64,000 nt of DNA from an uncultured Verrucomicrobiota bacterium (GTDB lineage Bacteria > Verrucomicrobiota > Kiritimatiellia > CAIVKH01). Position numbers and translations under genes: made by a program. Below, piece after piece: positions 2,914 through 47,383 of this stretch. Numbering within the stretch: position 1 is the first letter of the stretch; each line of letters starts with the position of its first letter. The stretch is taken from the NCBI GenBank assembly GCA_964470065.1, contig CAYYAR010000004.1, positions 26,329 through 90,328 on the forward strand, read 5' to 3'. The notes under the pieces were generated by a model. It had not been told where the DNA came from, did no database searches, and was given only the letters and a program-made list of their open reading frames with translations.

Positions 2914-3306
2914 ATGAAGGAATTCTGGAGCGAGTTGGGTGTGTTTGGTTTGCGCGTATCGTCCGGGTTGATGATGGCGACGCATGGTTATGCCAAGATC
3001 TTCGGGGGGCGGATGGAAAAGTTCACCGAAGGCGTGGATGCCATGGGATTTCCTTTTCCGGCATTTTTCGCCTGGGCAGCTGCCTTGTCCGAATTGATCG
3101 GCGGGGTGACGCTGGCTCTTGGTCTGGGCACGCGCGTGAGCGCGCTTTTGATTTATATGACCATGCTGGTCGCGGCATTTATCCGCCATGGTCAGGATCC
3201 ATTCGCCAAAAAGGAGCTCGCGCTGCTTTACCTTGCCATTATGTTTTTCTTTCTCTTGTATGGCGGCGGCAAGTGGGCGATCGACCGGTGCCGGCGCCGC
3301 GGATGA
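2914..3306 (+). CDS. DoxX family membrane protein
   Basis: 130 aa, 4-TM, DoxX-like (..ATHGYAKIFGG...LSELIGGVTLALGL..). Confidence 0.7.
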   Translation: MKEFWSELGVFGLRVSSGLMMATHGYAKIFGGRMEKFTEGVDAMGFPFPAFFAWAAALSELIGGVTLALGLGTRVSALLIYMTMLVAAFIRHGQDPFAKKELALLYLAIMFFFLLYGGGKWAIDRCRRRG

Positions 3307-6436: not shown

Positions 6437-6659
6437 GGTTTCCATGGGCGTTTACGATCGCGATTACATGCTCGAAAAAAAGCCGGAGAAGTTGACGCCG
6501 GCATCCACCAGTACTCCGCCGCGTCAACCCCCATCGCGCGCGCCGCTCTGGGCGCGAATCAAGTTCCGGTTGTGGTTATGGGTCAAGGGGCGCGGATAAA
6601 TTCCCCATTTGAAAATACCCCGGCTTCCGATAATCTTTTTCGCCTAAGGAATCACGTTT

Positions 6660-8321
6660 ATGTCCGATGAGCCAACTACCGCCGGGAAACCTTCGCACTT
6701 CATCCGCGATATTATTGCTGCCGATGTGGCCGCCGGCAATCAGGGCGCGCCAATGGTGGTGACGCGGTTTCCCCCTGAACCGAATGGTTACCTCCACATC
6801 GGTCACGCCAAGGCGATCTGCCTCGACTTCGGCATGGCCGCGGAGTTTGGCGGGCGCTGTCATTTACGCATGGACGATACCAACCCGGCCAAGGAGTCGA
6901 TGGAGTACGTCGAGTCCATCATGGAGGACGTGCGCTGGCTCGGCTTTGATTGGGGCGATCACTTTTATTTTTCCGCCGATTATTTCGAGCGGATGTTTGC
7001 GGTGGCCGAGGATTTGATCCGGCGCGGCAAGGCGTATGTGTGTGAACTGACCAGTGACCAGTGGAAGGAATACCGCGGCGTGCCGACGCGGCCGGGCCGT
7101 GAGAGTCCGTTCCGTCACCGCGCGCCGGAGGAGAACCTCGCGCTGTTTCATCGCATGCGTCACGGGGAGTTTCCTGACGGCTCGCTTTGTTTGCGGGCCA
7201 AGATCGATATGGCTTCGCCAAACTTGCATCTGCGCGATCCCGTGTTGTACCGCATCATGCGCGAGGCGCACTACCGCACCGGGGATGCATGGTGCATCTA
7301 TCCGATGTACGATTTTGCCCACCCGCTCGAGGATGCCTTCGAGGGTGTCACGCATTCGCTCTGCACGCTCGAATTCGAGGTGCATCGGCCCTTGTATGAT
7401 TGGGTGGTTGAACAGTTGGATCTGCCTTACCGCCCGCATCAGAACGAATTCGCGCGCTTGAATCTCACCTATACGGTGATGAGCAAGCGCAAGTTGCTCC
7501 AGTTGGTGCAGGAGAACCGGGTGTCGGGCTGGGACGATCCGCGCATGCCCACGATTTGCGGCTTGCGCCGGCGCGGCTATCCGCCGGCGGCGATCCGCGC
7601 GTTTGCCGCGATCATCGGCATCACCAAGTATGAGAGCCTCACTGACGTGGCCTTGCTTGAGCATTGCGTGCGCGATGAATTGAACAAAATCGCCGGACGC
7701 CGGATGGCCGTATTCAAGCCGTTGCGCGTCGTGATCGAGAATGCCTCCGATGTGCCGGCCACCGTGTCCGCGGTGAACAATCCCGAGGATCCTGCCTCCG
7801 GTACCCGCGAAATACCTTTCGGTCCGGAAATCCTGATCGAGCAGGACGACTTCATGCTGGAACCGCCGCCGAAATATTTCCGGTTGGCCCCCGGCCGATC
7901 GGTCCGCATCCGCTACGCGGGATTTCTGACCTGCATCGATGTGGTTCGTGGCGCAGACGGTTCGGTCGATGCACTGCGTTGCCAGTGGTCGCCTCCGGAT
8001 GCGGATCTCAAGGTCAAGGGGACGATTCATTGGGTGCCGGCCTCGGCGCCGGAAGCGCTGGTGCTTTTGTATGACCGTCTTTTTACCGTGCCCGAACCGG
8101 ATGCGGATGGCGAGAAGCCCTTTACGGAATACTTGAATCCGCATTCGCTGGAGGAAACGCAGGTGCGTATCGAGCCGTCGCTGCTGCAGGCCAAGGCCGG
8201 AGATCATTTTCAGTTTGAGCGTATTGGTTACTTCGTTGCCGACGGCAAGGAATTTGCCCCGGAGCGACCGGTCTTTAATCGCACTGTCACGCTGAAAGAC
8301 ACCTGGTCCAGGCAAAAGTGA
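6660..8321 (+). CDS. glnS: Glutaminyl-tRNA synthetase
   Basis: Class I HIGH motif (PEPNGYLHIGHAKA) and KMSKS motif (VMSKR), with GlnRS-like overall architecture (553 aa). Confidence 0.95.
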   Translation: MSDEPTTAGKPSHFIRDIIAADVAAGNQGAPMVVTRFPPEPNGYLHIGHAKAICLDFGMAAEFGGRCHLRMDDTNPAKESMEYVESIMEDVRWLGFDWGDHFYFSADYFERMFAVAEDLIRRGKAYVCELTSDQWKEYRGVPTRPGRESPFRHRAPEENLALFHRMRHGEFPDGSLCLRAKIDMASPNLHLRDPVLYRIMREAHYRTGDAWCIYPMYDFAHPLEDAFEGVTHSLCTLEFEVHRPLYDWVVEQLDLPYRPHQNEFARLNLTYTVMSKRKLLQLVQENRVSGWDDPRMPTICGLRRRGYPPAAIRAFAAIIGITKYESLTDVALLEHCVRDELNKIAGRRMAVFKPLRVVIENASDVPATVSAVNNPEDPASGTREIPFGPEILIEQDDFMLEPPPKYFRLAPGRSVRIRYAGFLTCIDVVRGADGSVDALRCQWSPPDADLKVKGTIHWVPASAPEALVLLYDRLFTVPEPDADGEKPFTEYLNPHSLEETQVRIEPSLLQAKAGDHFQFERIGYFVADGKEFAPERPVFNRTVTLKDTWSRQK

Positions 8322-9769
8322 ACCTGGACACATCCGCCGCGCACCCGCGCGCTCATGCTCCCGGCAGCTACCGGGAGGTCTTTGGTATCGCCTGGCCCCT
8401 GGTGGTCAGCATGGGCAGTTTCACGCTCATGCAGTTTATCGACCGCATGTTTCTCGCCTGGTACAGCCCGGTCTCGATCCAGGCCGCGCTGCCCGCCGGT
8501 ATTTTATCCTTCACGTTTGTATGCACCTTCATGGCGTTGTGTGGCTACGCCAATACATTTGTCGCGCAATACCATGGCGCCGGCGACCCCGCGGGGTGCA
8601 GTCGCTCGACGATGCAGGCGGTGTGGTTATCGGTCATGATCTGGCCGTTTTTGATTGTTTCCATTCCGCTGGGCTGGTGGTTTCTCGAATTGAGTCGTCA
8701 TGCGCCGGAGGTTCTCGCCGAGGAAATCGTTTATTTCACCTGGCTCACGGCGGGCGGGGTGCTGGTGCCGCTGGGCGCGGCGATCAGCAGCTTCTTCACC
8801 GGGCGCGGAGAGACGCGCACGAACATGATCGCATCGATGGCGGGCAATGTCGTGAATCTGGTGCTCGACTACATGTTGATTTTCGGCAAGTGGGGCGCGC
8901 CGGAAATGGGGATTCGCGGCGCGGCGATCGCCACGCTGATCGCCGGACTAGTGGCGCCGGCGATTTTGTTCACGCTGTATTTCTCCCGCCGTTATCATCT
9001 TATGTATCGCACCCGCGAACACCTCCGCATCGAATGGTCGCTCATGATGCGGCTGGTGCGATTTGGTCTGCCGTCCGGGCTTAATTTGTTGATCGATATT
9101 TCCTCGTTCAGTTTATTTATTTTAATTTCCGGCCGCATCGGCGAGCTTGCCCTGGCCGTGAGCAACATGGCGCTGAGCATCAACACGCTCGCCTTTTTGC
9201 CGCTGGTGGGATTGGGCATTGCCGCGGCGACGCTGGTTGGCCAATACCAGGGTCGCGGCGACTCCGCCACTGCGGCGCTGGCCGCGCGCCGGTCGGTAAC
9301 GATTGGATTGATCTACGTGATTGCGATTGGCGTCACCTACATTCTTTTTCCGCGATTGTATTTCTCCTTCTTTACCATGCGGGCGGAAAGCGGCTATTCC
9401 ATCGATGAGCTCATGGTGAGCGGGCGATGGATGCTCGTGATCATGGCGATTTGGGGTGTATTCGATGCGGTGAATATCATTCTCGCCGGCGCCTTGAAGG
9501 GGGCGGGTGATACGCGGTTTGTCTTGATCTATTCCACGCTGGTTTCGTGGGTATTCTGGGTCCCCGGTGTGCTGGTGATTGTGCTCGTGATGAAACTGGG
9601 GCTGCTGACCATGTGGCTGCATGCCGTAGCTTTTGTGGTGATTCTGGCCGCGGGATATGAGATCCGCTTCCGCCGCGGACGCTGGAAATCGATTCAAGTC
9701 ATCGAAACGCCGCCGCCACCCTCGGCGTCGCGCACCGGGGCCGAGGCGATGGCCGTGTCGGGCGATTGA
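8318..9769 (+). CDS. MATE family efflux transporter
   Basis: 483 aa, 12-TM, MATE/NorM-like. GTG start overlapping the glnS stop; stop TGA at 9767-9769. Confidence 0.85.
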   Translation: MNLDTSAAHPRAHAPGSYREVFGIAWPLVVSMGSFTLMQFIDRMFLAWYSPVSIQAALPAGILSFTFVCTFMALCGYANTFVAQYHGAGDPAGCSRSTMQAVWLSVMIWPFLIVSIPLGWWFLELSRHAPEVLAEEIVYFTWLTAGGVLVPLGAAISSFFTGRGETRTNMIASMAGNVVNLVLDYMLIFGKWGAPEMGIRGAAIATLIAGLVAPAILFTLYFSRRYHLMYRTREHLRIEWSLMMRLVRFGLPSGLNLLIDISSFSLFILISGRIGELALAVSNMALSINTLAFLPLVGLGIAAATLVGQYQGRGDSATAALAARRSVTIGLIYVIAIGVTYILFPRLYFSFFTMRAESGYSIDELMVSGRWMLVIMAIWGVFDAVNIILAGALKGAGDTRFVLIYSTLVSWVFWVPGVLVIVLVMKLGLLTMWLHAVAFVVILAAGYEIRFRRGRWKSIQVIETPPPPSASRTGAEAMAVSGD

Positions 9770-9802
9770 ATTTCGCCCCGGTCAGCGGCCGCGGCCACTG
9801 CC
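9692..9802. repeat. Direct repeat copy 1 (111 bp): the last ~25 codons plus stop of the MATE gene and 33 bp downstream
   Basis: Identical, apart from one mismatch (T/C), to 10246..10356. Confidence 0.9.
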
Positions 9803-10245
9803 TTGAGTTCAACATGTCAAACGCCTGCTATTGCAAGTCATTGAATGGCAAGGGTTGAGTTTTTGATCGGGGTCATTTCGGGTGTCTCATGCTATGTGGC
9901 TTGGTATGGCGACCAGTTGATCTGTGGCATCGTCCGTTGGCGCAGGTGATGGCTCGCGGCATCCGGCCGCATCGCGGCGGCCCATTTTGGGCGCTTTCGG
10001 TGTTGGGCTCTCGGTCGCGGACATGAGTCCAGCGACCGTTCGCCCGCCGTGAAATCGCCGCAAACTGGGCCTACCGCGATGCTCATTTCGCGTGCCGCGA
10101 AATGACCGGATGCCACTCGCGCTCACGCATCTATCCGCCGCCGACGGCGGATAGATAAAGAAAGCATCAACAACCGGATTCTCCGCAAGCTGATTCCCGT
10201 AGGCGTATGCTTGTACGTCAGGGTGTCCCATTGTTGAAGTCAGGA
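9803..10245. other. 443-bp non-coding insert between the 111-bp direct repeats; contains a perfect 12-bp-stem palindrome (10129..10156)
   Basis: No convincing ORF. Imperfect ~12-bp terminal inverted sequences (GAGTTCAACATG at the left end; reverse complement GACTTCAACAATG at the right). Palindrome ATCTATCCGCCG-CCGA-CGGCGGATAGAT. Confidence 0.5.
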
Positions 10246-10356
10246 ATTCAAGTCATCGAAACGCCGCCGCCACCCTCGGCGTCGCGCACCGGGGCCGAGG
10301 CGATGGCCGCGTCGGGCGATTGAATTTCGCCCCGGTCAGCGGCCGCGGCCACTGCC
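10246..10356. repeat. Direct repeat copy 2 (111 bp), a duplicate of the MATE 3' end
   Basis: See copy 1. Includes a second copy of the gene's last ~25 codons plus stop, with no upstream coding frame. Confidence 0.9.
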
Positions 10357-10466
10357 AAGGCCTCGTGCATATCCAACGCATCCGGTAGTCCCAACGATCC
10401 GGAGAGGCCCGGCTTCCCGGGCCGGGAGCCTCGCCCTCCCGCACATAAATTCCGGGCCGCTCGAAT

Positions 10467-13400
10467 CTACGGCAATTTGACGCCGGTGCGGTAGTAGCGC
10501 AAATCGGCGCTGTTGGTGATGCTGAAGCTCAGACTGCCACCGTTACCCGGAACATCGTTCCCGATCGCGTTGGTCCAGTCGAGCTCGCCCCCGAGTTGAT
10601 GCACCCAGAAGACATTATAAAGACGGGCGGTAGAGCTTGGATTAATCAAAATAGTGGCCGTGTTGTTCGTGATTTGATTCAAAGCCGCGCGATTAAAGCC
10701 GGCCGGAAGATTGGTCGGATTCACATCAAAGATAAAGGCCTGGCCGTAGGTGATTTCACCTCCCGGCACGAGCGAGCCAGCCTCGTTGGTCGGGCTCACG
10801 CCGGGGTACTTGTTGAACCAGTCATCGGGTATGCCATCGCTGTTGCTGTCGGAGACGGCACTGGAATTACGGGTGACGGTGATGTTGGTGGAGGTGGTCT
10901 GAGTGCCCGTGGTCGTGATGATGTGCGACATTTCACCGATATAGACGTTGCGCGCGGTGTCGGGGCCGGCGTTGTTGTTGTAAAACTCCAGCCAGGTGAT
11001 GGGTCCGCCGGCGCCCAGCGTGCCGATGATTGTCCCTGAGCCGGTGCTCAATGAATATGCGTTATTTGTGCCGAGGGTCAGATTCAGATTTAGTCCGCTG
11101 TCGGTATGTGCGATAGTCGTTACTCGGCCTGTAGGTATATCGGTAATACGATAAAATAATTCGCTGCCAACGAAATAGAATCTGAAACGAACAGAGCCAT
11201 TGCTGTCTCGCATTTCAAAGCCTACTTGTCCGCCATTATCAATCGTATTGTTATCGAAGCGCACGGCGAAGCTGTCACCGGTGCTCATGGGGGTGACGAA
11301 CGAACGCGTCACCGCCGCGCGGCCACCGTTGTTGGCCCACAAGCCGAATCCCTTGGTGGCGCCGACATGCATGTTGGCGGGTGCATCGGCCAGAAACTGG
11401 CCGGCATTGCTGGCGCTGTGATTCATATACCACTCGTTAAATCCGGCGCCTTGTTTTGAACCATTGGTCCATGCGGTGTACAGCATGGCGGAGTCGGAGT
11501 TGGTGATGGCGCCGGCCACATTCGCGATGCCGGTGAAATCAACCTGATTGGTGCCATTATCCAGGTTCAGGTTGGCGTTCCACGCCCAACCATCGATCGA
11601 GGCGTCCAGGGGCCGGTTCAGTATGCCGGTTTGACCCGTCATGCGATTGGACCAGATTACGCTGGAGAAGTTATAGGCGGCGCGACCGCTGAAGGAGGCG
11701 AGGCTGTTGGTGGTGGAGGTGCCGCTTGAAGGGTTGAGCACTTGAATCGTGCCGCTGCTGATCGCGGCAAACGGGGTGGTTACGCTGACTGCGACGGAAG
11801 TAGCCGACAGGCCAATCGCGTTGGTGGCGCGCAGGTGATAGAGGTATGTGGTTTCCGGCTGCAGGTTGTTGTCGGTGTAACTCGTGCTTTGCGGCGAGGC
11901 AATCAGGGCGCCGTCACGATATACCTGGTATGCGGTGGCGAGCGAGGCGGCGTTCCAAATCAATGAGACCGATGAGCTGTCGAGATCTTGCACGCTCAGT
12001 CCGGTCGGCGCGGCGGGAGCATTGGTCACGGGCAAATTGGTTACGTCAATATTCCAGTTGCCGCCGCCGTTGTTGTCCCACACGTTCGCATTGTTGTTGA
12101 ACACGTAGCGGACAATGGTGGCGTTGGAGGGCACGGTGTAGGTGTAGGTCCAGATGCTGCCGGATTTGGTCATCGGCACGCCCGGTACGGGCGTCCAGTT
12201 GGCGGTGACGTTCTCGTTGTAACCATAATGAATGTTCATCGTGGTGGCGGAGGCGAGCGCGCGGCCGGCCGGATTATAGTTCACCGTCACGGATTGACCG
12301 GCCACCGGCGTGAATGGAACCGTCCATACCGGGCCGGAGGGCGCGTCGCAGTCGATGATGGTGGTGGTCCAGTTTTGTCCGCTCCGGCTGTCGATGTTCG
12401 TGCCGCTTTGGAACCAAACGATGGCGGATGGCGCATTGTCGGGCGCCGAGATGGTGTAGCTCCAGACATTCGGGGATGTGTTGGTCATGGCATATGGCGA
12501 CCAGGCGGAGCCATTGTTGAAGCTGATTTGCATGGTCACCGGGCTTAAACCCTCCAGTGGGCCATTGGCCGCCGAATAGGTGACCGTGATGGGCTCGCAG
12601 TCGCGGGGACTGGGAGAGAAGGTGACACTCGATGACGGGGTAAGGCCGTCGTTGGCAACCCAGACGTGTTGAATTTCGGATTTATGCACATTGCCGAGGC
12701 TGTCCGTGGCTTCGATATAATAGTCGATCAACTTGTCGCGGAAGTTCGGCAGCGAGGCGTCATCGATTTTTGCAAAATAGTAATCGGCGATTACCGGGTT
12801 GGCCCAGAAGGCGGGATCGAATACGAAATAGTCGATCTGGCCGTTGGCCGCCGCGGTATTGAGGGCGGTACGGGTTTTCGGCAACACGCGCTTGGTCATG
12901 TTGATGCTGACCCAGGCCCCGACTTCACTTCCGCCGGCATAGGTCTCGTTCTGATTGGAGTTGAGCGGATTGGTGCCGTCGTTGTCGATGCGGACTTTGA
13001 CTTGAATATTGGTGATGCCGTTGATGTCGTAGGCATGCGTCCAGATGTAGAACCACGAGGGCATCTTTTTGAGGAAGTTGTTATTGTTAATGTGGGGTTC
13101 GTTGTTGAACCAGCCGAACGTGTACCAGCCGGGATTGTAGGGGAACCGCTGCGGCTTCAATACGGTGGGCCCGACTTTGTCTTTGGCCTTGCGGGCCGGG
13201 GTCATGAAGCCTTGGAGTTTTTCGATCGCGTTTTTGGTGGCGAGCGCGGGTTTGACTTCGTCGTCATTGCCGAGACCGCCGTAGTAATTGAAACCGGAAT
13301 CGAGGCCTTTCAGGTAGATGTGCCAGGCGAGCTCGACATCGTTGGGATTGGTCCAGGTTCCGTCCCAGTCATACGGCGAGGCGATCTTCCATTCGTTCAC

Positions 13401-14876
13401 CATGTCGTTGCCGCCATTCTCCTCGCGCAGCACCTGCTCGGCGGTTTCCAGCCAGTTCGCGCCAGCCATGAGCGGAGCGTAGCTGAAGAATTTTAGCGCG
13501 AAGCCCGGCGTTTCCATGTCGACTTGCGTGCCGGGATGCGTGGTGATGCCGCGGTTCGCCACGGTGGCGACCGGCGGTTCGATCCACTTGAGGAAGTTCG
13601 GTGAGCCATAACACATTTCCGGGAAGATCCACGCGCCGTCCTCGATGTGTGAGTCGGTGGTGACGCCGGCCTTGGCGGCATTCACGAAATCCTGTGGCGC
13701 CGAGGGAGTATAACCGGCGCTTGCGGAGGAGCCGAACAATTGAGGTGTGGCCTCGTTCCATGAACTACTGCCGCCGCCCCAGGCGTTGTCGCCGTCGGTG
13801 GAGGGAATCACGATGACCGGCACATTGGCGTGCGGGGCAATATGGTCGCCGATTTTCTGGATGCCCTCGTTGGCATACCCGTAGCGGTAGGACAGCACAT
13901 CATCCGAGGGAACCGCATACATCTTTTTCTCTGCGCCGGTTTCCGGATTAACATATTTCACGCGGTGCAGTTGATAAGCGAACGGGGCAATGTTCCACGC
14001 GGCGTTGCCGGGGTTCGGCATGCCGTACCACCACTGATTTATATTGTCGAATCGCGGCGAGATTTGATCGGCCTTGTTGGGCGGGCTGGAATAGATGCCG
14101 AAGCTGCCCTCGGGATTGGCGCGATCGTTGTAGCTCGGACTGGTGCGGCTGATGTGATGACTGGCGACCAGGGTCCACTCATAACCTTCATCCACCAGCA
14201 CATCGACAAGGTGACGCGAGTAGCCCATCTCGGTCGGGAAGAAACCTTTGGAGTGATCGGACAGGTCGCTGTTGCCGCCCCATGCCTTCCACCAGGCTTG
14301 TTTGAATGCCTGGATCTCTTTGCGGAAAACCGATTTGGGAAGCAGCGGGCCGAGCGAGTGATGGTAGGTAAAGCCAAGCATGTCCATGCGGGTGGAGCCG
14401 GCGGGCGTTGTCCAGCCGCGGGCTTCGCGGTAGCCGGCATTCCAGTTGCCGCCGTACCCGAGATGACCGCCACCGCCGAGTTGGCGGACATTATCGATCA
14501 GTGAGCCGGAATAACTGACACCGAAACCGCCCCGGCTGTCAACGCTGGCCAGGGAGTTGCGCGGACCCTGTTGGTACGCGCTCTTGCGGTCATCGAGGCC
14601 AAAGATGTCGGTAAGATTGTTTTCCGGATGCTGGGAAGGACTGATCCCGCCATAGTTTTGACCGGGCTTGAGAACAATGGAGTCCCACGCGTACTGTCCG
14701 CGCTGGTTTTGCGGTCCGTTGCTGTTCCACTCCGGCCAGTAGAGCGGTTGGTGGTTATGCCAGAATCGGGAGACATACACGTTGTTGTTCGCCGGGGACT
14801 GAGCGTTAGCTTCAGCGCTCAACAGTAAAACCAGCAAACCGCTTCCAACTCGCAACGCCATCGAACTCGACTTCAT
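10467..14876 (-). CDS. Large secreted multidomain glycoside hydrolase, GH57-like catalytic N-terminus with an FN3 domain
   Basis: 1469 aa with a signal peptide (MKSSSMALRVGSGLLVLLLSAEANA). N-terminal blocks resemble GH57 conserved regions: FWHNHQP (region I), GFFPTEMGY (Glu nucleophile region), STDGDNAWGG (HDDGEKFG-like acid/base region). A clear fibronectin type III domain (PAAPTGLSVQDLDSSSVSLIWNA...YQVYRDG...TTYLYHLRATN). Asn/Thr/Ser/Gly-rich beta-rich C-terminal domains. Confidence 0.7.
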   Translation of the reverse strand: MKSSSMALRVGSGLLVLLLSAEANAQSPANNNVYVSRFWHNHQPLYWPEWNSNGPQNQRGQYAWDSIVLKPGQNYGGISPSQHPENNLTDIFGLDDRKSAYQQGPRNSLASVDSRGGFGVSYSGSLIDNVRQLGGGGHLGYGGNWNAGYREARGWTTPAGSTRMDMLGFTYHHSLGPLLPKSVFRKEIQAFKQAWWKAWGGNSDLSDHSKGFFPTEMGYSRHLVDVLVDEGYEWTLVASHHISRTSPSYNDRANPEGSFGIYSSPPNKADQISPRFDNINQWWYGMPNPGNAAWNIAPFAYQLHRVKYVNPETGAEKKMYAVPSDDVLSYRYGYANEGIQKIGDHIAPHANVPVIVIPSTDGDNAWGGGSSSWNEATPQLFGSSASAGYTPSAPQDFVNAAKAGVTTDSHIEDGAWIFPEMCYGSPNFLKWIEPPVATVANRGITTHPGTQVDMETPGFALKFFSYAPLMAGANWLETAEQVLREENGGNDMVNEWKIASPYDWDGTWTNPNDVELAWHIYLKGLDSGFNYYGGLGNDDEVKPALATKNAIEKLQGFMTPARKAKDKVGPTVLKPQRFPYNPGWYTFGWFNNEPHINNNNFLKKMPSWFYIWTHAYDINGITNIQVKVRIDNDGTNPLNSNQNETYAGGSEVGAWVSINMTKRVLPKTRTALNTAAANGQIDYFVFDPAFWANPVIADYYFAKIDDASLPNFRDKLIDYYIEATDSLGNVHKSEIQHVWVANDGLTPSSSVTFSPSPRDCEPITVTYSAANGPLEGLSPVTMQISFNNGSAWSPYAMTNTSPNVWSYTISAPDNAPSAIVWFQSGTNIDSRSGQNWTTTIIDCDAPSGPVWTVPFTPVAGQSVTVNYNPAGRALASATTMNIHYGYNENVTANWTPVPGVPMTKSGSIWTYTYTVPSNATIVRYVFNNNANVWDNNGGGNWNIDVTNLPVTNAPAAPTGLSVQDLDSSSVSLIWNAASLATAYQVYRDGALIASPQSTSYTDNNLQPETTYLYHLRATNAIGLSATSVAVSVTTPFAAISSGTIQVLNPSSGTSTTNSLASFSGRAAYNFSSVIWSNRMTGQTGILNRPLDASIDGWAWNANLNLDNGTNQVDFTGIANVAGAITNSDSAMLYTAWTNGSKQGAGFNEWYMNHSASNAGQFLADAPANMHVGATKGFGLWANNGGRAAVTRSFVTPMSTGDSFAVRFDNNTIDNGGQVGFEMRDSNGSVRFRFYFVGSELFYRITDIPTGRVTTIAHTDSGLNLNLTLGTNNAYSLSTGSGTIIGTLGAGGPITWLEFYNNNAGPDTARNVYIGEMSHIITTTGTQTTSTNITVTRNSSAVSDSNSDGIPDDWFNKYPGVSPTNEAGSLVPGGEITYGQAFIFDVNPTNLPAGFNRAALNQITNNTATILINPSSTARLYNVFWVHQLGGELDWTNAIGNDVPGNGGSLSFSITNSADLRYYRTGVKLP

Positions 14877-15045: not shown

Positions 15046-15933
15046 TTACAAGCCGAGAATCAGTGCGGTGGCCATTCCGTATAAACCGATGGTGACGAGG
15101 AGTGGCCGGTCGGTGAGCAGTACCTGCTCCGGTCGCTCTCCGAGTTGGTGGTGATACACCAGTGAGATGTAGCGGAAGAGCCCGAACATGACAAACGGCA
15201 GAGTAAATCCGAGTCGATGACTTCCAAATTTACTCACGGTGTCCGGCCACTGGGTGTACAGCGCATAGGCTACCAGCGTGGCTGCACCCGTCATGGCGAT
15301 CAGTTGATCGAGCATCTTTTCGTTGTAACCCATGAGCGACGGGCGAGTATCCGGGGCGCGGTCGTTGATGAGCAGGAGTTCCTGGCGTCGTTTGCACAAC
15401 GCCAGAAACATGGCGAGCAACAGGGTGACCAACAAGAGCCACGATGAGATCGGCACGGCAATGGTCACCGCACCGGCGAGCGCGCGCAGCACAAAGCCAA
15501 TGGAAATGACAAATAAATCAACCAGCGTGATGCGCTTGAGCACAAATACATAGGCCAATTGAAGAACAAGATAACCGCCAATGACATAGGCCAGTTTTGG
15601 AGCGACCAGCCAGGCCCCGCCGAGCGAAACACACAACAGCAGCCCCGCCGCCATCAACGCGGAGGAAACCGCGAGCTGACCCGAAGCGATGGGGCGAAAC
15701 TTTTTCTCCGGATGAGCGCGGTCAAGCTCCGCATCTTTGATGTCGTTGAGCAAATAAATCGCGCTGGAGGCGAGGCAGAAAAACAGCACGGCGGCAAGGG
15801 CCGGGAGGATGAGCGAAAAAATATCCAAATGCTGGGAGCGATCACCGGCCGCAAAAACCAACGCGGCAAGCACGACGACGTTTTTCGTCCACTGCTTGGG
15901 CCGCATGGCCTTTAACAACATGACGGGACTCAT
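15046..15933 (-). CDS. UbiA-family prenyltransferase, decaprenyl-phosphate phosphoribosyltransferase (DPPR synthase)-like
   Basis: Start MSPVMLLKAMRPKQWTKN (the RPxQWxKN N-terminus typical of the DPPR-synthase family). UbiA Asp-rich motif NDIKDAELDRAHPEKKFRPIASGQ. 8-9 TM. Its ATG overlaps the stop of the upstream GT2 gene (ATGA). Confidence 0.8.
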   Translation of the reverse strand: MSPVMLLKAMRPKQWTKNVVVLAALVFAAGDRSQHLDIFSLILPALAAVLFFCLASSAIYLLNDIKDAELDRAHPEKKFRPIASGQLAVSSALMAAGLLLCVSLGGAWLVAPKLAYVIGGYLVLQLAYVFVLKRITLVDLFVISIGFVLRALAGAVTIAVPISSWLLLVTLLLAMFLALCKRRQELLLINDRAPDTRPSLMGYNEKMLDQLIAMTGAATLVAYALYTQWPDTVSKFGSHRLGFTLPFVMFGLFRYISLVYHHQLGERPEQVLLTDRPLLVTIGLYGMATALILGL

Positions 15934-16727
15934 GACGCCGCCTTGCCGGCAGGCGCGCCCACACTGCGTGGATTCAGTTTGGCCGGACCGCGTCGCTTCA
16001 TCCCGCAACCGAGCCAGAGCTTCCACACCATCCACAAAGCCTCGCGGATGATCGCCGTGCTCATTTTCGAGGCGCCGGAGCGGCGCTCTTCGAATGTAAT
16101 GGGCACCTCATCGATGATAAATCCCTTCATCCAGGCCTTGTGGCTGAGTTCGATCTGAAAGGAGTAGCCGTTGGAAGTGATCTTGTCCAAATCGATCGAT
16201 TCCAGCACGGCCCGCCGGAAGCACTTGAAGCCGCCGGTGGGATCGCTGACCGGCAGGCCGGTAATCATATGCACGTAAATGGCCGCGCCTTTGCTCAGGA
16301 TCAAGCGCGCCAGCGGCCAGTTAATAACGCGAATGCCACCCTTGTAACGTGTGCCGAGGCATAAATCGGCATTGCGCGCCGCTTCGCGAAAATCGGGTAA
16401 GGCATCCGGATCGTGGGAAAAGTCGGCATCCATTTCGAAGATGAATTCATAATGGCGGGCCAACGCCCAGGTGAATCCGGCGATGTAAGCCCGTCCGAGG
16501 CCGTTCTTTTCCTTGCGATGCAGGACATGGATCCGGGGTTCGCGTTCCCGCATGCGGTCGATCAGTTGGCCGGTTCCGTCGGGCGAGTTGTCGTCGACAA
16601 ACAGCACGTCGGCATGGGGCAAAGCCGCCAACACGGCGTCAGCTATGGGCTGGACGTTGTCGATTTCGTTATAGGTCGGTATGACTACCAGGGTGTCGTT
16701 CATGTTCGCTTTTATCGGACCAGCCAT
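15930..16727 (-). CDS. GT2 polyprenol-phosphate glycosyltransferase (Dpm1/ArnC/GtrB-like)
   Basis: VVIPTYNE...LFVDDNSPDGT...EMDADFSHDP...GGFKCFRR is a classic polyprenol-P sugar synthase GT2 pattern. The long ORF (to 17219) is trimmed to MAGPIK (16727) because the upstream part overlaps def on the other strand. MNDTLVV (16703) is an alternative start. Confidence 0.85.
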   Translation of the reverse strand: MAGPIKANMNDTLVVIPTYNEIDNVQPIADAVLAALPHADVLFVDDNSPDGTGQLIDRMREREPRIHVLHRKEKNGLGRAYIAGFTWALARHYEFIFEMDADFSHDPDALPDFREAARNADLCLGTRYKGGIRVINWPLARLILSKGAAIYVHMITGLPVSDPTGGFKCFRRAVLESIDLDKITSNGYSFQIELSHKAWMKGFIIDEVPITFEERRSGASKMSTAIIREALWMVWKLWLGCGMKRRGPAKLNPRSVGAPAGKAAS

Positions 16728-16769
16728 CCGTGTATAGTGTTCACAGTATAGGAGGCGAGCGCTGCGATT

Positions 16770-17315
16770 GTGAATCATGAAATTAGAATATTCGGCGACC
16801 CGGTGCTTCGGGCCAAAGCCGAGCCGGTGGCCCATGTCGACGACGAATTGCGGGCCCTCGGCCGGGAAATGCTCGAGATCATGCGCAAGTCGGACGGGGT
16901 GGGCCTGGCGGCTCAGCAAATCGGCGAGACCAGGGCGATTTGCGTGATCGAGGTGCCGGAGGAATACGACCATGACGATGACGGGCAGCGATTGAATCCC
17001 GGTTTGCCGATGCCGATGATTCTGATCAACCCCGTGCTCAGTCAGCCTTCCAAAAAAGAGGATTCCCGCGAGGAGGGCTGTTTGAGTTTTCCCGGAATTC
17101 GCGGCGCGATCAGTCGCCCGCGGAGCATCCTGCTCACGTGCCTGAATGAGCATGGCGAGAAAATTGAAACGGAAGTCCGGGGGTTCACTGCCCGGGTGAT
17201 TCAGCATGAGGTTGACCATCTCAACGGTGTGCTGTTTATCGACCGCATGACGGCGGCCAAACGTCTGATGCTGAAGCCCAAGTTGAAGCGCATGCGCGAA
17301 GAGGAACCGTCCTGA
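16770..17315 (+). CDS. def: Peptide deformylase
   Basis: Motifs GVGLAAQQIG, EGCLSFPG, HEVDHLNG. Confidence 0.9.
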   Translation: MNHEIRIFGDPVLRAKAEPVAHVDDELRALGREMLEIMRKSDGVGLAAQQIGETRAICVIEVPEEYDHDDDGQRLNPGLPMPMILINPVLSQPSKKEDSREEGCLSFPGIRGAISRPRSILLTCLNEHGEKIETEVRGFTARVIQHEVDHLNGVLFIDRMTAAKRLMLKPKLKRMREEEPS

Positions 17316-38250: not shown

Positions 38251-38513
38251 TATCACGCACGCAGCTTATCCGGCTAAAACAATCAGGAAAGGCGCAAAAC
38301 CCGGAAAGAATGGCCGCCGCGAATCGGCTGATCTCTCCTGACTTCAACAATGGGATTCCCCGACGTACATGTATTCGGGAATCAGCTTGCGGAGAATCCG
38401 GGTGTTGATTTTTTCCTCATCTATCCGCCACCTGCGGCGGAAAAAATTTAAACTGTTCTCCCTCAACATCTTGTGCAACAGATAAAAAATATCAAAAAAT
38501 CCTGAACTACGTA

Positions 38514-38542: not shown

Positions 38543-38631
38543 ATTACAAGCATGCGAGCACGTAAAGTCTTTGCATAATTTCATGGACGAAACGAAACGA
38601 ACAGTATTAAATGCGTAACGTTGGAGAAAAA

Positions 38632-45613: not shown

Positions 45614-47383
45614 TCAGCGCTGCGGCCAACGCGGGCGGTCGGTGAGAAATATCTGATCGCGGCCGCTGATACGCAGCGCTTCGGTGAGCGGAAAGTCCGC
45701 CGGAATCATCTCGCGGAAGATGGGGTACCACGAGCTGTAAGGGCCGGTCATTAAACTGCTGACATAAGGCAAGTCGCGGGTAAGCGTGGTGAAGTAAAGG
45801 CCGCCGATCCGCTTTTGCATGTCGTTGATGCGGTAAAATTCCTCGATGGTGTTGGGGATGAGCAGGGAGCTGCGATCGCCATACCACGCGGTTGCCCAGG
45901 GCATATCGGTTCCCAGCAGTTCATCTGCGGTCATCATGTTGCAGACCATCGATACATAGGTCGGGTAGTAAGGCGGGTAGGGGTATCCGCTGCGGGGGGG
46001 CATCAGCTTCAAGATTAACGGCACCGCGGTAAGCAAGATCAGCAATCCGATCAGACCTGTTCGCAACACCGGAATGGCAATCTGCATGCGGTCGAGCAAC
46101 AGATAGAAAAAGGCGAGCCCGTACAAAATGATGAAGGGACGAAAGATCGCCATGGCCCGGAGGCTTGAGTTGTCAAACAGGCACGCGACAAGAAACAGGC
46201 CGATCATCGCGGCAAGCATGGCAAAGCGCAGAACATGCACCTGATTGCGGGCGAACCGGAAGAAGAACATCGCGATGAACAAGGCGGCGAGGATACCGTT
46301 GTTCGAGGACGAAAGCACCGTGTCGTAATGGCGGGCGATGTTACTCGTCCACTTTGTTTTGAGGGCATCGCCGGCGCCGGAGGGGAGGGGATTGCCGGTT
46401 CGTTCGAACGAATGGGTGATGGCCGGGCTGTCGATGTTGTGCACCAGTTGCGGCGTGAGGCCGAACGGTTTGCCGCAGACCTGGATATTGCGAATGATCC
46501 ATGGCGATACAAACAGCGCGGTTAACGCGAGAAATGCGAGGGCAATTTTCCATCCGCGTTGCGGAATCAAAAAGGTGATCAGCAAACCGCACGCCACCAG
46601 CATCCATCCGGCGGAGTAACGGGTCAGAAAGGCAAGTGCGCAGGCCAGGCTGGCGAGCGTGAAGGGCAGAATCCATCGCCAAGTCACGGCGCCGTCAGAG
46701 GTCCGCTCGATGGCGACAAGGGTGAGATAAACGGCCAGGGTGGTAAGGAGCGTGGCCAGCGAAACACTGAGGCCGGATATACCGTCCGCCCAAACCTGAT
46801 CGGAAACAAAAAACAGGGTGGTGGCGATAAGGGCCAGGCGCGGCTCGAAAAAGCGGCGACCAATCAAAAAGATCAGCAGCCCGGTCAGGATGGTCGCTAC
46901 ATTGCCCACCGGCACAATCGCCCATTGTTCGGGGGGATAAGCCCGAACCTTCTGGCCGGCGTCAAATGATCCGCCCACCCACAGATATGCCTTCGACAAG
47001 ATCCACGGATAAACCGGCGGATGCACGATATCCGGTTGTTGGAGCATGATGCCCGGGGATTCCAGGCCGTGCTGATCAAATACGCGCAACGCGGCCGGGC
47101 GAATAACCTTGGTCGAGAACGATCCATCGGTCATCAATTGGCGGGCAATTTGCGCCTGGTCCATCGCCTCGGCTTCCTTTAGCCCCCAGAACTCGGACAG
47201 CCAGTACAGCGACATCAGAGTGATGACGAAAAACACGTACAGGGCGAGTTTGATGAACTGGCTGCCGACGCCCTCGTCCACATTGTAAATCAGATCCTGA
47301 ACGCGGGACTCGAAGCTCTTGTGGACATTGACTGTCTCTGACTTCACGAGACGGACTTTATACGGCGGCGATGAGGTCGGCAA
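45614..47383 (-). CDS. GT-C fold membrane glycosyltransferase (ArnT/PMT-like, GT39/83-type)
   Basis: 589 aa, ~12 TM. The first periplasmic loop carries a DE motif (YNVDEGVG). Long loops and overall architecture of polyprenol-P-sugar-dependent GT-C enzymes. Confidence 0.65.
   Translation of the reverse strand: MPTSSPPYKVRLVKSETVNVHKSFESRVQDLIYNVDEGVGSQFIKLALYVFFVITLMSLYWLSEFWGLKEAEAMDQAQIARQLMTDGSFSTKVIRPAALRVFDQHGLESPGIMLQQPDIVHPPVYPWILSKAYLWVGGSFDAGQKVRAYPPEQWAIVPVGNVATILTGLLIFLIGRRFFEPRLALIATTLFFVSDQVWADGISGLSVSLATLLTTLAVYLTLVAIERTSDGAVTWRWILPFTLASLACALAFLTRYSAGWMLVACGLLITFLIPQRGWKIALAFLALTALFVSPWIIRNIQVCGKPFGLTPQLVHNIDSPAITHSFERTGNPLPSGAGDALKTKWTSNIARHYDTVLSSSNNGILAALFIAMFFFRFARNQVHVLRFAMLAAMIGLFLVACLFDNSSLRAMAIFRPFIILYGLAFFYLLLDRMQIAIPVLRTGLIGLLILLTAVPLILKLMPPRSGYPYPPYYPTYVSMVCNMMTADELLGTDMPWATAWYGDRSSLLIPNTIEEFYRINDMQKRIGGLYFTTLTRDLPYVSSLMTGPYSSWYPIFREMIPADFPLTEALRISGRDQIFLTDRPRWPQR

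What the first reader, a model, noticed from the sequence alone, without database searches (positions are those of the whole stretch)
15046..16727. Overlapping UbiA-family (DPPR-synthase-like) and GT2 polyprenol-P glycosyltransferase pair; a GT-C elsewhere in the window
A UbiA-family protein with the RPxQWxKN N-terminus and NDxxDxxxD motif typical of decaprenyl-phosphate phosphoribosyltransferases is translationally coupled (ATGA) to a Dpm1/ArnC-like GT2. Together they would make polyprenyl-phosphate-linked sugars, the donor type used by periplasmic GT-C glycosyltransferases. Two GT-C candidates occur in the window: the ArnT/PMT-like gene (45614-47383) and the O-antigen-ligase-like fragment (51027-51785). 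In Actinobacteria this chemistry feeds arabinan synthesis, and in Pseudomonas it feeds pilin arabinosylation. No DprE1/E2 epimerase is present here, so the sugar is probably not arabinose. An uncharacterised lipid-linked glycosylation route (protein or glycan) is plausible.
Basis: partly seen in the sequence, partly recalled or inferred. Interest (0 to 1): 0.5.

Follow-up and report, generated by a model that had tools for sequence, protein, structure and literature searches.

The report
Coupled lipid-linked mannose and phosphoribose synthases
Two overlapping genes in a Kiritimatiellia-type bacterium most likely make two lipid-carried sugar donors (mannose and ribose-phosphate) for glycosylation outside the cytoplasm. 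The enzymes are of known kinds, but their tight pairing, kept throughout this bacterial group, has not been studied.

Summary
A 295-aa UbiA-family gene (15046-15933, minus strand) and a Dpm1-like GT2 gene (15930-16703 or 16727, minus strand) overlap by ATGA.

- **UbiA protein:** it passes two NCBIfam 'decaprenyl-phosphate phosphoribosyltransferase' cutoffs. It matches M. tuberculosis Rv3806c (8j8j) at E 4e-46 and keeps every PRPP, Mg and pyrophosphate contact residue. MenA/UbiA-type models score at noise level.
- **GT2 protein:** it is closest to dolichyl-phosphate mannose synthase (5mlz, E 5e-30) and keeps that enzyme's donor and acceptor-phosphate residues. It has no predicted membrane helix.
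- **Pairing:** among the fetched loci (excluding duplicate copies and contigs identical to the window), all 15 whose UbiA is at least 51% identical carry this GT2 directly upstream, mostly with the same ATGA. These are Kiritimatiellia and Lentisphaerae. None of about 65 more distant homologues does, and the GT2-linked proteins form one clade.
- **Partner:** in 5 of those 15 loci a roughly 1040-aa TMEM260-like GT-C with TPR repeats follows directly. It is absent from this window.
45614-47383 has a GT-C fold but no synteny link to the pair. 51027-51785 is a truncated Wzy_C remnant.

No phosphatase, flippase or DprE1/E2 is seen, so the final pentose and the glycosylated target are unknown. Verdict: a new variant of known lipid-linked periplasmic glycosylation systems, of moderate interest.

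The parts
15046..15933 (-). UbiA-superfamily gene (295 aa) of the Rv3806c type: predicted polyprenyl-phosphate 5-phosphoribosyltransferase (PPPRS)
   Evidence: PF01040 at E 9e-22. NCBIfam NF008977 scores 265.7 bits (cutoff 234) and NF008978 scores 239.6 bits (cutoff 207). Match to 8j8j at E 3.8e-46 over residues 6-285. All Rv3806c substrate-contact residues are invariant in alignment A1. About 9-10 hydrophobic segments.
15930..16727 (-). Dpm1-type GT2 gene: predicted polyprenyl-phosphate mannose (hexose) synthase. It is 265 aa from the ATG at 16727; the more likely start is the ATG at 16703 (257 aa).
   Evidence: PF00535 at E 1.3e-27. Best solved relative is P. furiosus DPMS 5mlz at E 4.8e-30, against ArnC at about 1e-5. 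DPMS signature residues are conserved (alignment read against PMC5526996). Homologues are named polyprenol monophosphomannose synthase. No predicted TM helix. The identical protein is called at 257 aa.
15930..15933 (-). ATGA junction: the GT2 stop codon overlaps the UbiA start codon (translational coupling)
   Evidence: Read directly. The same 4-nt overlap (ATGA, or GTGA in L027) is present in 12 of the 15 related loci and in all contigs identical to the window. The other three have an 8-nt overlap, a 1-nt overlap and a 4-nt gap (gene calls).
16745..16774 (-). Sigma-70-like promoter match (TTCACA-18-TATACT) in the short divergent spacer between def and the GT2 gene
   Evidence: One match was found against 1.1 expected by chance, so only its position is suggestive.
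45614..47383 (-). GT-C-fold membrane glycosyltransferase (GT39/PMT_2-like). It is a possible consumer of a polyprenyl-P-sugar, but no link to the pair is shown.
   Evidence: PMT_2 at E 9e-4, below the cutoff. Most homologues carry PF13231, and some are named glycosyltransferase family 39 protein. AF2 model has pLDDT 79.6 and pTM 0.83. Foldseek top hits are AglB, ArnT, PglB, STT3, DPY19, AftA and AftB at probability 1.00. It sits in a conserved HK / sigma-54 RR / GT-C module. No homologue lies near the pair in other loci.

Best explanation
**The unit.** The two genes form a co-translated bicistron, transcribed divergently from def. It encodes two enzymes that each load a sugar onto the same membrane carrier, polyprenyl (probably undecaprenyl) phosphate, at the cytoplasmic face.

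**Step 1 (inferred from homology and conserved residues).** The soluble or peripheral GT2 is a DPM1-type synthase. It transfers a hexose, most likely mannose from GDP-mannose, to polyprenyl phosphate to give polyprenyl-P-mannose.

**Step 2 (inferred from homology and conserved residues).** The nine-helix UbiA-fold protein is a polyprenyl-phosphate 5-phosphoribosyltransferase. It transfers ribose-5-phosphate from PRPP to polyprenyl phosphate, as Rv3806c and Citrobacter ORF15 do.

**Step 3 (inferred from pathway knowledge; no gene identified here).** The phosphoribosyl lipid is dephosphorylated, possibly epimerised, and both lipids are flipped to the periplasm.

**Step 4 (inferred from synteny in relatives).** GT-C glycosyltransferases use these donors to glycosylate an envelope protein or glycan. 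In related Kiritimatiellia the enzyme encoded directly downstream is a roughly 1040-aa TMEM260-like GT-C with a TPR domain, which suggests a protein acceptor.

**Not known.** The final pentose (ribofuranose, xylofuranose or arabinofuranose) and the target.
For: **UbiA protein**
- It exceeds the curated cutoffs of two decaprenyl-phosphate phosphoribosyltransferase equivalog models. All quinone, haem and chlorophyll prenyltransferase models score 39 bits or less against cutoffs of 180-390.
- It matches Rv3806c (8j8j) at E 3.8e-46, full length, about 38% identity.
- The residues that contact substrate in the Rv3806c structure (PMC10994848) are R22, K28, Y70, N73, D77, K87, R90, Q135, Y138 and K143. 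All are invariant in the window protein and six PVC homologues. Y157 is Phe, which the paper also reports in some mycobacteria. The paper states that the phosphoribose-binding residues are not shared with ordinary UbiA prenyltransferases.

**GT2 protein**
- It matches P. furiosus DPMS at E 4.8e-30.
- It conserves Y10, E12, D39 (guanine contact), R63, G68, L69, the D89-A-D91 motif, H94, the acceptor-phosphate triad R117/R131/S135, and the A-loop residues R202/K208 (one search read).

**Coupling and clade specificity**
- GT2 lies directly upstream of UbiA in all 15 related loci with at least 51% UbiA identity, and in none of about 65 loci at 41-49%.
- The ATGA junction is conserved.
- The GT2-linked UbiAs form one clade.

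**GT-C link**
- A TMEM260-like protein with TPR repeats lies immediately downstream in L001, L004, L010, L091 and L093. PF11028 scores 84-99 bits against a cutoff of 24. It matches human TMEM260 (9rql) at E 2e-10.

**Precedent**
- PPPRS plus flippase plus GT-C systems add pentofuranoses in the periplasm (PMC11127046).
Against: - No enzyme activity has been measured for any member of this clade.
- Three components needed to turn the PPPRS product into a usable periplasmic donor are missing from the window and not conserved next to the pair in relatives: a 5'-phosphatase (PAP2 or HAD type), a flippase (GtrA/SMR or MATE), and any epimerase.
- The window has a MATE gene at 8318-9769, but it is on the other strand beyond a 4.4-kb gene and has no counterpart near the pair elsewhere.
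- The syntenic GT-C is absent from the window and from 10 of the 15 related loci.
- Mannose as the hexose rests on similarity to DPMS only. PfDPMS itself has some activity with GDP-glucose.
- In Chloroflexota the homologous UbiA gene sits beside mevalonate-pathway genes. The wider family is therefore not always embedded in glycan loci.
Confidence: 0.6

Rival explanations
1. Arabinofuranose route, as in mycobacteria and Pseudomonas pilin glycosylation. The PPPRS product is dephosphorylated and epimerised by DprE1/DprE2 homologues encoded elsewhere in the genome, giving polyprenyl-P-arabinofuranose. Together with polyprenyl-P-mannose, this would build a lipoarabinomannan-like or arabinosylated glycoconjugate.
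For: The enzyme family is the same as Rv3806c. A Pseudomonas homologue recovered in the same scan (L065) has GtrA, a DprE1-like FAD protein, a DprE2-like SDR and a large membrane protein adjacent. Only 64 kb of this genome is visible. To my knowledge, a Ppm1-type enzyme acting alongside a UbiA-type enzyme is the donor logic of mycobacterial LM/LAM.
Against: The window has no DprE1-like or DprE2-like sequence (tblastn E > 0.1; Pfam). None lies within 8-10 kb of the pair in any of the related loci whose genes were listed. Where an oxidoreductase is nearby, it is a GalE-like SDR epimerase (L092) or an adh_short protein (L001). That resembles the ORF13 route to xylofuranose more than DprE1/E2.
Confidence: 0.15
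2. Physical complex rather than two independent enzymes. The GT2 has no membrane helix and would use the UbiA-fold protein as its membrane anchor or lipid-presenting partner. To my knowledge this is like M. smegmatis Ppm1 with the membrane protein Ppm2, or human DPM1 with DPM2/3. In a stronger form, the two act in sequence on one lipid, for example hexose-1-phosphate formation on the 5-phosphate of polyprenyl-P-ribose-5-P.
For: The GT2 has no predicted TM segment. The start/stop overlap is strictly conserved, which is consistent with co-translation of the two proteins. GT2 and UbiA are never found apart in this clade. No 5'-phosphatase is associated with the pair, which leaves the 5-phosphate unaccounted for.
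Against: Four-nucleotide overlaps are common in operons and do not show an interaction. Every catalytic residue of both enzymes is intact, so neither is reduced to a scaffold. The conserved acceptor-phosphate site of DPMS (R117/R131/S135) fits a lipid phosphate. I know of no precedent for a sugar-1-P-5-ribosyl lipid. I could not run a complex prediction with these tools.
Confidence: 0.15
3. The UbiA protein is an ordinary aromatic or lipid prenyltransferase (MenA, UbiA, haem O synthase or DGGGP-synthase type), and its position next to the GT2 gene has no functional meaning.
For: It belongs to the UbiA superfamily (PF01040). Chloroflexota homologues lie next to isoprenoid (mevalonate) genes.
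Against: All such NCBIfam models score 20-39 bits against cutoffs of 180-390, while the phosphoribosyltransferase models are passed. The phosphoribose-specific residues K28, Y70 and Q135 are conserved. The adjacency is conserved across two bacterial classes.
Confidence: 0.03

Closest known systems
M. tuberculosis Rv3806c (DPPR synthase, PDB 8j8j) and the decaprenyl-phospho-arabinose pathway
   Same: Same fold and family: E 3.8e-46, about 38% identity, with NCBIfam equivalog cutoffs passed. All Mg, ribose, 5'-phosphate and pyrophosphate contact residues are conserved.
   Different: The host is Gram-negative PVC (a Kdo transferase gene is in the window). No Rv3807c-type phosphatase, DprE1/E2 or Rv3789-type flippase lies nearby. 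The gene is coupled to a Dpm1-like GT2, which to my knowledge is not the case in mycobacteria. In the tree it falls in a separate clade from Rv3806c.
Three-component pentofuranose glycosylation systems (Citrobacter youngae ORF15/ORF14/ORF12; Kelly et al. 2024, PMC11127046)
   Same: A PPPRS of the same family makes a polyprenyl-P-pentofuranose donor for a periplasmic GT-C. Optional SDR epimerases change the pentose. In one related locus (L092) a GalE-like SDR follows the UbiA gene.
   Different: There is no fused HAD phosphoribose phosphatase, no adjacent MATE flippase and no GT136-type GT-C. A hexose-lipid synthase is fused into the operon, and in relatives the GT-C is TMEM260-like with TPR repeats. 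The context is conserved and housekeeping-like (next to def) and is not a variable O-antigen locus.
Dolichyl/polyprenyl-phosphate mannose synthases (P. furiosus DPMS 5mlz; human DPM1; mycobacterial Ppm1)
   Same: GT2 GT-A catalytic domain with the DAD motif, guanine-binding Asp, acceptor-phosphate triad and A-loop residues conserved. PGAP names homologues polyprenol monophosphomannose synthase.
   Different: It has no transmembrane or GtrA-like domain, unlike type III PfDPMS. Its stop codon overlaps the start of a PPPRS gene. The sugar specificity is untested.
Human TMEM260 and the TMTC O-mannosyltransferases (GT-C plus TPR)
   Same: The GT-C encoded after the pair in relatives matches PF11028 TMEM260-like well above cutoff and human TMEM260 9rql at E 2e-10. 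It carries C-terminal TPR repeats, like TMEM260 and the TMTCs, which use Dol-P-Man made by DPM1.
   Different: It is bacterial and about 1040-1080 aa, with acceptor and donor unknown. It is not present in this window.
Gtr-type (GtrA/GtrB/Gtr*) periplasmic glucosylation and ArnC/ArnT
   Same: The logic is the same: a GT2 makes a polyprenyl-P-sugar that a GT-C consumes.
   Different: The GT2 is much closer to DPMS (E 5e-30) than to ArnC (E about 3e-5). No GtrA gene is present.

Membership tests
Polyprenyl-phosphate 5-phosphoribosyltransferase (Rv3806c / PPPRS; NCBIfam NF008977, NF008978) | Score above the curated equivalog cutoff | tested here: met
   NF008977 scores 265.7 against 234, and NF008978 scores 239.6 against 207. 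NF008976 (189.7 against 474) is not passed.
Polyprenyl-phosphate 5-phosphoribosyltransferase (Rv3806c / PPPRS; NCBIfam NF008977, NF008978) | UbiA fold with multiple TM helices and the NDxxDxxxD Mg-binding motif (N73, D77) | tested here: met
   PF01040. About 9-10 hydrophobic segments. N63 and D67 are invariant.
Polyprenyl-phosphate 5-phosphoribosyltransferase (Rv3806c / PPPRS; NCBIfam NF008977, NF008978) | Phosphoribose-specific contacts (K28, Y70, Q135, Y157) that ordinary UbiA prenyltransferases lack | tested here: met
   K17, Y60 and Q125 are invariant. Y157 is F147, a substitution also reported in some mycobacteria.
Polyprenyl-phosphate 5-phosphoribosyltransferase (Rv3806c / PPPRS; NCBIfam NF008977, NF008978) | Pyrophosphate-binding K/R cluster plus Tyr (R22, K87, R90, K143, Y138) | tested here: met
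   R11, K77, R80, K133 and Y128 are invariant.
Polyprenyl-phosphate 5-phosphoribosyltransferase (Rv3806c / PPPRS; NCBIfam NF008977, NF008978) | PRPP-dependent transfer of ribose-5-P to polyprenyl phosphate | not testable with these tools
   Needs a membrane assay with PRPP and farnesyl-P or undecaprenyl-P.
DPM1-type polyprenyl-phosphate mannose synthase (GT2) | GT-A GT2 domain with the DAD metal and diphosphate motif | tested here: met
   PF00535 at E 1e-27. MDADFSH aligns to PfDPMS 89-DADLQH-94, with Q93 replaced by Ser.
DPM1-type polyprenyl-phosphate mannose synthase (GT2) | Acceptor-phosphate triad (R117, R131, S135), said to be conserved in bona fide DPMSs | tested here: met
   All three align to identical residues (alignment; definition from PMC5526996).
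DPM1-type polyprenyl-phosphate mannose synthase (GT2) | Guanine-binding Asp39 and A-loop residues R202/K208 | tested here: met
   Conserved in the alignment.
DPM1-type polyprenyl-phosphate mannose synthase (GT2) | Curated NCBIfam model passed | tested here: not met
   No NCBIfam model reached its cutoff. The best were haloarchaeal dolichyl-P hexose transferase (41.6 against 375) and PpgS (41.5 against 370). The library may hold no model for this subfamily. The PGAP name seen on homologues comes from another rule.
DPM1-type polyprenyl-phosphate mannose synthase (GT2) | GDP-mannose specificity | not testable with these tools
   Sequence similarity only.
Three-component pentofuranose system (PPPRS + flippase + GT-C; Kelly 2024) | PPPRS with an associated 5'-phosphatase (a fused HAD PRP domain or a separate phosphatase) | tested here: not met
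   The protein is 295 aa with no extra domain. NF006088 (the HAD-UbiA fusion model) scores 182 against 351. No phosphatase gene lies next to the pair in the window or in relatives.
Three-component pentofuranose system (PPPRS + flippase + GT-C; Kelly 2024) | Adjacent MATE or GtrA/SMR flippase | tested here: not met
   No GtrA homologue in the window. The MATE gene at 8318-9769 is not syntenic with the pair elsewhere.
Three-component pentofuranose system (PPPRS + flippase + GT-C; Kelly 2024) | Adjacent GT-C that consumes the donor | tested here: inconclusive
   Not adjacent in the window. A TMEM260-like GT-C lies directly downstream in 5 of the 15 related loci. It is a different GT-C family from GT136.
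Mycobacterial-type DPA (arabinofuranose) pathway | DprE1 and DprE2 epimerase pair | tested here: not met
   Absent from the 64-kb window and from the flanks of the related loci. The rest of the genome could not be searched.
GT-C glycosyltransferase (for 45614-47383) | GT-C fold | tested here: met
   AF2 model with pLDDT 79.6. Foldseek top 23 PDB hits are all GT-C at probability 1.00, with query-normalised TM-scores mostly 0.4-0.55. PMT_2 is annotated on most homologues.
GT-C glycosyltransferase (for 51027-51785) | Complete multi-TM GT-C or ligase domain | tested here: not met
   Only the C-terminal Wzy_C part plus TPR is present. The maximal ORF is 252 aa.

The most novel reading that the evidence does not exclude
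The GT2 / PPPRS / TMEM260-like GT-C arrangement is an ancestral, housekeeping dual-donor glycosylation module of Kiritimatiellia and Lentisphaerae. It would be a bacterial counterpart of eukaryotic DPM1 plus TMEM260/TMTC protein O-mannosylation, with a PRPP-derived pentofuranose (or ribose-5-phosphate) added from a second lipid donor made by a protein co-translated with the mannose-lipid synthase and possibly complexed with it. On this reading the pair marks an uncharacterised class of envelope glycoconjugate in PVC bacteria, and a PPPRS route that needs no dedicated adjacent phosphatase or flippase.
Probability: 0.3. Interest if true: 0.6.

Novelty: new variant of a known kind. Interest (0 to 1): 0.4.

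Why it matters
PRPP-derived pentofuranose donors on polyprenyl phosphate were long considered a speciality of mycobacteria, where they are a drug-target pathway. They were generalised to Gram-negative O-antigen side chains only in 2024.

This pair shows the same enzyme in a different setting. It is hard-wired to a mannose-lipid synthase, conserved across two classes of PVC bacteria, and sits next to housekeeping genes. In relatives it is followed by a bacterial homologue of the human O-mannosyltransferase TMEM260.

If the module works as proposed, it gives three things:
- a testable entry point to envelope or protein glycosylation in a poorly studied phylum;
- a bacterial model for TMEM260-type enzymes;
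- a variant PPPRS system with different accessory components.

If not, the pair is simply two correctly annotated lipid-sugar synthases.

Tried and rejected
1. **TMEM260-like GT-C in the window.** tblastn with the L001, L004 and L093 proteins found nothing.
2. **GtrA, DprE1-like, DprE2-like and SDR epimerase homologues in the window.** Queries taken from Pseudomonas L065 and from L001, L091 and L092 gave nothing below E 0.1. A small 4-TM ORF at 2914-3306 that could have been GtrA is DoxX.
3. **Single-sequence AlphaFold of the 589-aa protein.** The model was unusable (pLDDT 42). I repeated it with an alignment.
4. **Sequence searches of the 589-aa protein against PDB.** phmmer and a 29-sequence profile found nothing. 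Only the fold search identified it.
5. **The second GT2 in the window (61188-61979) as a possible Dpm1 paralogue.** It is unrelated. Its nearest structures are GmaR and SunS.
6. **The window's MATE gene as the flippase by analogy with ORF14.** Rejected as unsupported: no synteny with the pair.
7. **Promoter and terminator scan.** It gave one well-placed but statistically unremarkable promoter match and no convincing terminator after the UbiA gene.
8. **Literature searches.** Searches for this gene pair, DUF2723/TMEM260 in bacteria, and Kiritimatiellia mannosyltransferases found no study of this module.
9. **Prediction of a GT2-UbiA complex.** Not possible with the available tools.
10. **The rest of the source genome.** It could not be searched.
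Full report
**1. What is in the sequence**

On the minus strand, a 295-aa ORF (15046-15933) and a 257/265-aa ORF (15930-16703 or 16727) overlap in the sequence ATGA. The TGA of the upstream gene shares three bases with the ATG of the downstream gene.

The pair is transcribed divergently from peptide deformylase (16770-17315, plus strand). A 170-bp gap follows, and then a 1469-aa secreted GH57/CBM53/fn3 protein on the same strand. A sigma-70-like hexamer pair lies just upstream of the GT2 gene, but one such match is expected by chance.

The rest of the window is ordinary chromosome. It carries GlnS, DprA, topoisomerase I, a XerC/D-like recombinase, Kdo transferase, MurB, ferrochelatase, PlsY/GpsA, several two-component systems, PEP-CTERM proteins and a MacAB-TolC-like exporter. 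The best-matching named homologues are from Kiritimatiellia MAGs, so the source is most likely a member of that PVC class.

**2. The downstream gene is an Rv3806c-type phosphoribosyltransferase**

- It matches Pfam UbiA and passes the curated cutoffs of two NCBIfam 'decaprenyl-phosphate phosphoribosyltransferase' equivalogs: 265.7 bits against 234, and 239.6 against 207.
- Models for 4-hydroxybenzoate, menaquinone, haem O, chlorophyll and related prenyltransferases all score 39 bits or less against cutoffs of 180-390.
- The only solved relative by sequence is M. tuberculosis Rv3806c (8j8j), at E 3.8e-46 over the whole length.
- The cryo-EM paper on that enzyme lists the contacts: Mg via N73 and D77; ribose via N73 and Q135; the 5'-phosphate via K28, Y70 and Y157; pyrophosphate via R22, K87, R90, K143 and Y138. 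It notes that the phosphoribose contacts are not shared with ordinary UbiA enzymes (PMC10994848).
- In an alignment of the window protein, six PVC homologues and Rv3806c, all of these are invariant. The exception is Y157, which is Phe, a replacement the paper also reports in some mycobacteria.

I conclude with fair confidence that the protein transfers ribose-5-phosphate from PRPP to a polyprenyl phosphate. The activity itself is inferred and not shown.

**3. The upstream gene is a DPM1-type synthase**

- Pfam gives only the general GT2 family, and no NCBIfam model is passed.
- The closest solved structure is Pyrococcus furiosus dolichyl-phosphate mannose synthase (5mlz, E 4.8e-30). ArnC is 25 orders of magnitude weaker.
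- I read that alignment against the structural paper (PMC5526996). The following are conserved: the nucleotide contacts (Y10, E12, D39 to guanine, R63, G68, L69), the DAD motif and H94, the acceptor-phosphate triad R117/R131/S135 that the authors call diagnostic of bona fide DPMSs, and the gating A-loop residues R202/K208. Q93 is Ser, and F177/K178 are Tyr/Ser.
- The protein has no predicted membrane helix. It therefore lacks the GtrA-like membrane domain of the archaeal enzyme.
- Annotation pipelines name its homologues 'polyprenol monophosphomannose synthase' or 'dolichol-phosphate mannosyltransferase'.

Formation of a polyprenyl-P-hexose is well supported by homology. Mannose is likely but unproven.

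**4. The pairing is conserved and clade-specific**

A scan of one genome per species returned 80 loci encoding relatives of the UbiA protein. Nine further loci came from looking up the contigs that encode individual UbiA homologues.

- Setting aside duplicate copies and contigs identical to the window, 15 related loci have a UbiA at least 51% identical: L001, L004, L007-L014, L027 and L091-L093. They come from Kiritimatiellia, Lentisphaerae and 'Verrucomicrobia' MAGs. All 15 carry the GT2 homologue immediately upstream.
- None of about 65 loci at 41-49% identity does. These include Chloroflexota, Acidobacteriota, Zixibacteria, WOR-3, Latescibacterota, Planctomycetota, Paenibacillus and Pseudomonas.
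- The junction is the same 4-nt overlap (ATGA, or GTGA in L027) in 12 of the 15. The other three have an 8-nt overlap, a 1-nt overlap and a 4-nt gap (with gene calls).
- The GT2 is the better conserved partner, for example 84% against 78% and 66% against 57% identity.
- In a neighbour-joining tree the GT2-linked UbiA proteins form a single clade. Rv3806c and the Pseudomonas protein fall outside it.
- Divergent def is also conserved from Kiritimatiellia to Lentisphaerae.

This is a stable, probably ancient bicistron. It is not a chance adjacency or a mobile O-antigen cassette.

**5. Who uses the products?**

In five related loci (L001, L004, L010, L091, L093) the next gene is a 1037-1081-aa protein. 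It matches Pfam TMEM260-like at 84-99 bits (cutoff 24) and PMT_2, carries C-terminal TPR repeats, and hits human TMEM260 (9rql) at E 2e-10. L093 has a second paralogue 6 kb away.

TMEM260 is a GT-C O-mannosyltransferase that uses Dol-P-Man and has a TPR-like luminal domain. Its bacterial homologues are mentioned in that paper but uncharacterised (PMC10214176). This gives direct synteny support to the idea that the pair feeds a periplasmic GT-C, possibly one with a protein acceptor.

The gene is not in this window. Here the GH57 protein occupies the downstream position.

- **45614-47383.** By itself it barely touches PMT_2 (E 9e-4, below cutoff), and it finds nothing in PDB by sequence or profile. 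Most of its 263 homologues carry PMT_2, and some are named GT39. An AlphaFold model built on 29 sequences (pLDDT 79.6, pTM 0.83) retrieves only GT-C enzymes as its 23 best PDB matches, including AglB, ArnT, PglB, STT3, DPY19, AftA, ALG9, Pmt4, AftB and EmbB. It is a GT-C.
- **Its context.** It lies in its own module, a PAS histidine kinase, a sigma-54 response regulator and the GT-C, conserved from Kiritimatiellia to Lentisphaerae. It is never near the pair in other loci. The family occurs in the same two classes. In Lentisphaerae bacterium GWF2_57_35 both it and the pair are present (locus tags A2X46_02250 and A2X46_05405). It therefore remains a possible consumer, but that is all that can be said.
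- **51027-51785.** This is the C-terminal part of a Wzy_C domain plus TPR, in an ORF that cannot be longer than 252 aa. It lies beside a toxin-antitoxin-like pair of small ORFs. It is a remnant, and it is not a plausible user of polyprenyl-monophosphate donors.

**6. What is missing**

Known PPPRS routes need three further components: a 5'-phosphatase (Rv3807c, or the HAD domain fused in Citrobacter ORF15), a flippase (GtrA/SMR or MATE), and optionally epimerases (DprE1/E2 for arabinofuranose, a GalE-like SDR for xylofuranose) (PMC11127046).

None is in the window, and none is conserved beside the pair in relatives. The scan could have shown them: the Pseudomonas homologue L065 has GtrA, a DprE1-like FAD protein, a DprE2-like SDR and a 737-aa membrane protein adjacent.

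Some relatives have an SDR nearby: a GalE-like epimerase directly after UbiA in L092, and an adh_short protein after the GT-C in L001. This is not consistent across loci. The window's MATE gene (8318-9769) is not syntenic with the pair. The final pentose, and how the donors reach the periplasm, therefore remain open.

**7. Most likely mechanism and rivals**

- **Best explanation (about 0.6).** Two co-translated enzymes load mannose (from GDP-Man) and ribose-5-phosphate (from PRPP) onto polyprenyl phosphate. After dephosphorylation, possible epimerisation and flipping by unlinked genes, GT-C enzymes use them outside the cytoplasm. Ancestrally the consumer was the TMEM260-like TPR protein.
- **Arabinose rival (about 0.15).** DprE1/E2 are encoded elsewhere, giving a mycobacterium-like arabinose route.
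- **Complex rival (about 0.15).** The helix-less GT2 needs the UbiA-fold protein as a membrane partner, or the two act on one lipid. To my knowledge the precedents are Ppm1/Ppm2 and DPM1/DPM2-3. The conserved coupling and the missing phosphatase are compatible with this, but I could not test it.
- **Ordinary prenyltransferase with chance adjacency (about 0.03).** The evidence above contradicts this.

**8. Comparison with known systems and novelty**

Each protein is a recognisable member of a characterised family, and public pipelines already name them. As a system, it resembles the Gtr/Arn logic and the 2024 three-component pentofuranose systems. It fails their membership tests on the phosphatase, the flippase and the GT-C family, and it adds a hard-wired hexose-lipid synthase.

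Full-text searches found no paper on this module or on bacterial TMEM260 homologues. I rate it a new variant of a known kind, of moderate interest (0.4). It is a good lead for PVC envelope glycobiology, but nothing about the individual genes is surprising.

Noticed in passing
window 45614-50026 (minus strand); L094, L095: A three-gene module is conserved from Kiritimatiellia to Lentisphaerae: a PAS/HisKA histidine kinase, a sigma-54 response regulator and a 577-aa GT-C-fold (GT39/PMT_2-like) membrane protein. A glycosyltransferase directly behind an NtrBC-like regulator pair is unusual. In the window a further 5TM-LYT hybrid kinase (43382-45586) follows.
   Followed up: partly
window 50206-51785: A truncated Wzy_C plus TPR ORF (51027-51785, lacking its N-terminal membrane half) sits next to two overlapping small minus-strand ORFs (50206-50592 and 50589-50825) that look like a VapBC-type toxin-antitoxin pair. 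I judged this from their arrangement and sequences; no family search was run on them. The picture suggests an O-antigen-ligase/polymerase-like gene broken by an insertion.
   Followed up: partly
L021-L086 (Chloroflexota loci), e.g. L024:10858-12581, L038:8904-9887: In 28 Chloroflexota loci the Rv3806c-type UbiA gene is followed on the same strand by a GHMP kinase (mevalonate-kinase-like). In 17 of them an amino-acid-kinase-family gene (isopentenyl-phosphate-kinase-like) comes next. In three loci, including L038, a diphosphomevalonate-decarboxylase-like gene lies just upstream. This places the gene in a mevalonate-pathway neighbourhood, not a glycan one, and I have no explanation for it.
   Followed up: partly
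window 10467-14876 (minus strand): A 1469-aa secreted protein with GH57, CBM53 and fn3 domains lies directly downstream of the UbiA gene on the same strand. Related loci have giant CBM48/CBM53 alpha-amylase-family proteins on the other side of def (L001, L004). Large starch/glycogen-type enzymes thus recur around this locus.
   Followed up: no
window 38000-42984: A low-GC stretch (0.485 against about 0.59) holds two small ORFs, one with a PEP-CTERM sorting signal (39334-39942). It is followed by a 982-aa protein with about 12 membrane helices, a spermidine-synthase-like domain and TPR repeats (40036-42984).
   Followed up: no
window 61188-63487 (minus strand): A second GT2 (263 aa) is unrelated to the Dpm1-like one. 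Its nearest solved structures are the protein glycosyltransferases GmaR and SunS. It lies directly downstream of an FHA-domain protein.
   Followed up: partly
window 8318-9769 (plus strand): A MATE-family transporter lies 5 kb from the pair. MATE proteins are the proposed flippases in the Citrobacter pentofuranose system, but this one shows no synteny with the pair in any related locus.
   Followed up: partly
L093:9017-12262 and 15243-16903; L091:12228-16433: One Kiritimatiellia relative has two TMEM260-like TPR GT-C paralogues near the pair. In another, the GT-C is followed by an SDR epimerase/dehydratase, a nucleotidyltransferase, a GHMP kinase, a SIS isomerase (together a heptose-nucleotide-like pathway) and another GT2.
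   Followed up: no
L065 (Pseudomonas sp. L-22-4S-12) 5223-10840: This is a canonical arabinofuranose-type cluster: GtrA-like, DprE1-like FAD protein, DprE2-like SDR and a 737-aa membrane protein, divergent from the UbiA homologue. It served as a positive control, showing that these partners are detectable when they are present.
   Followed up: yes
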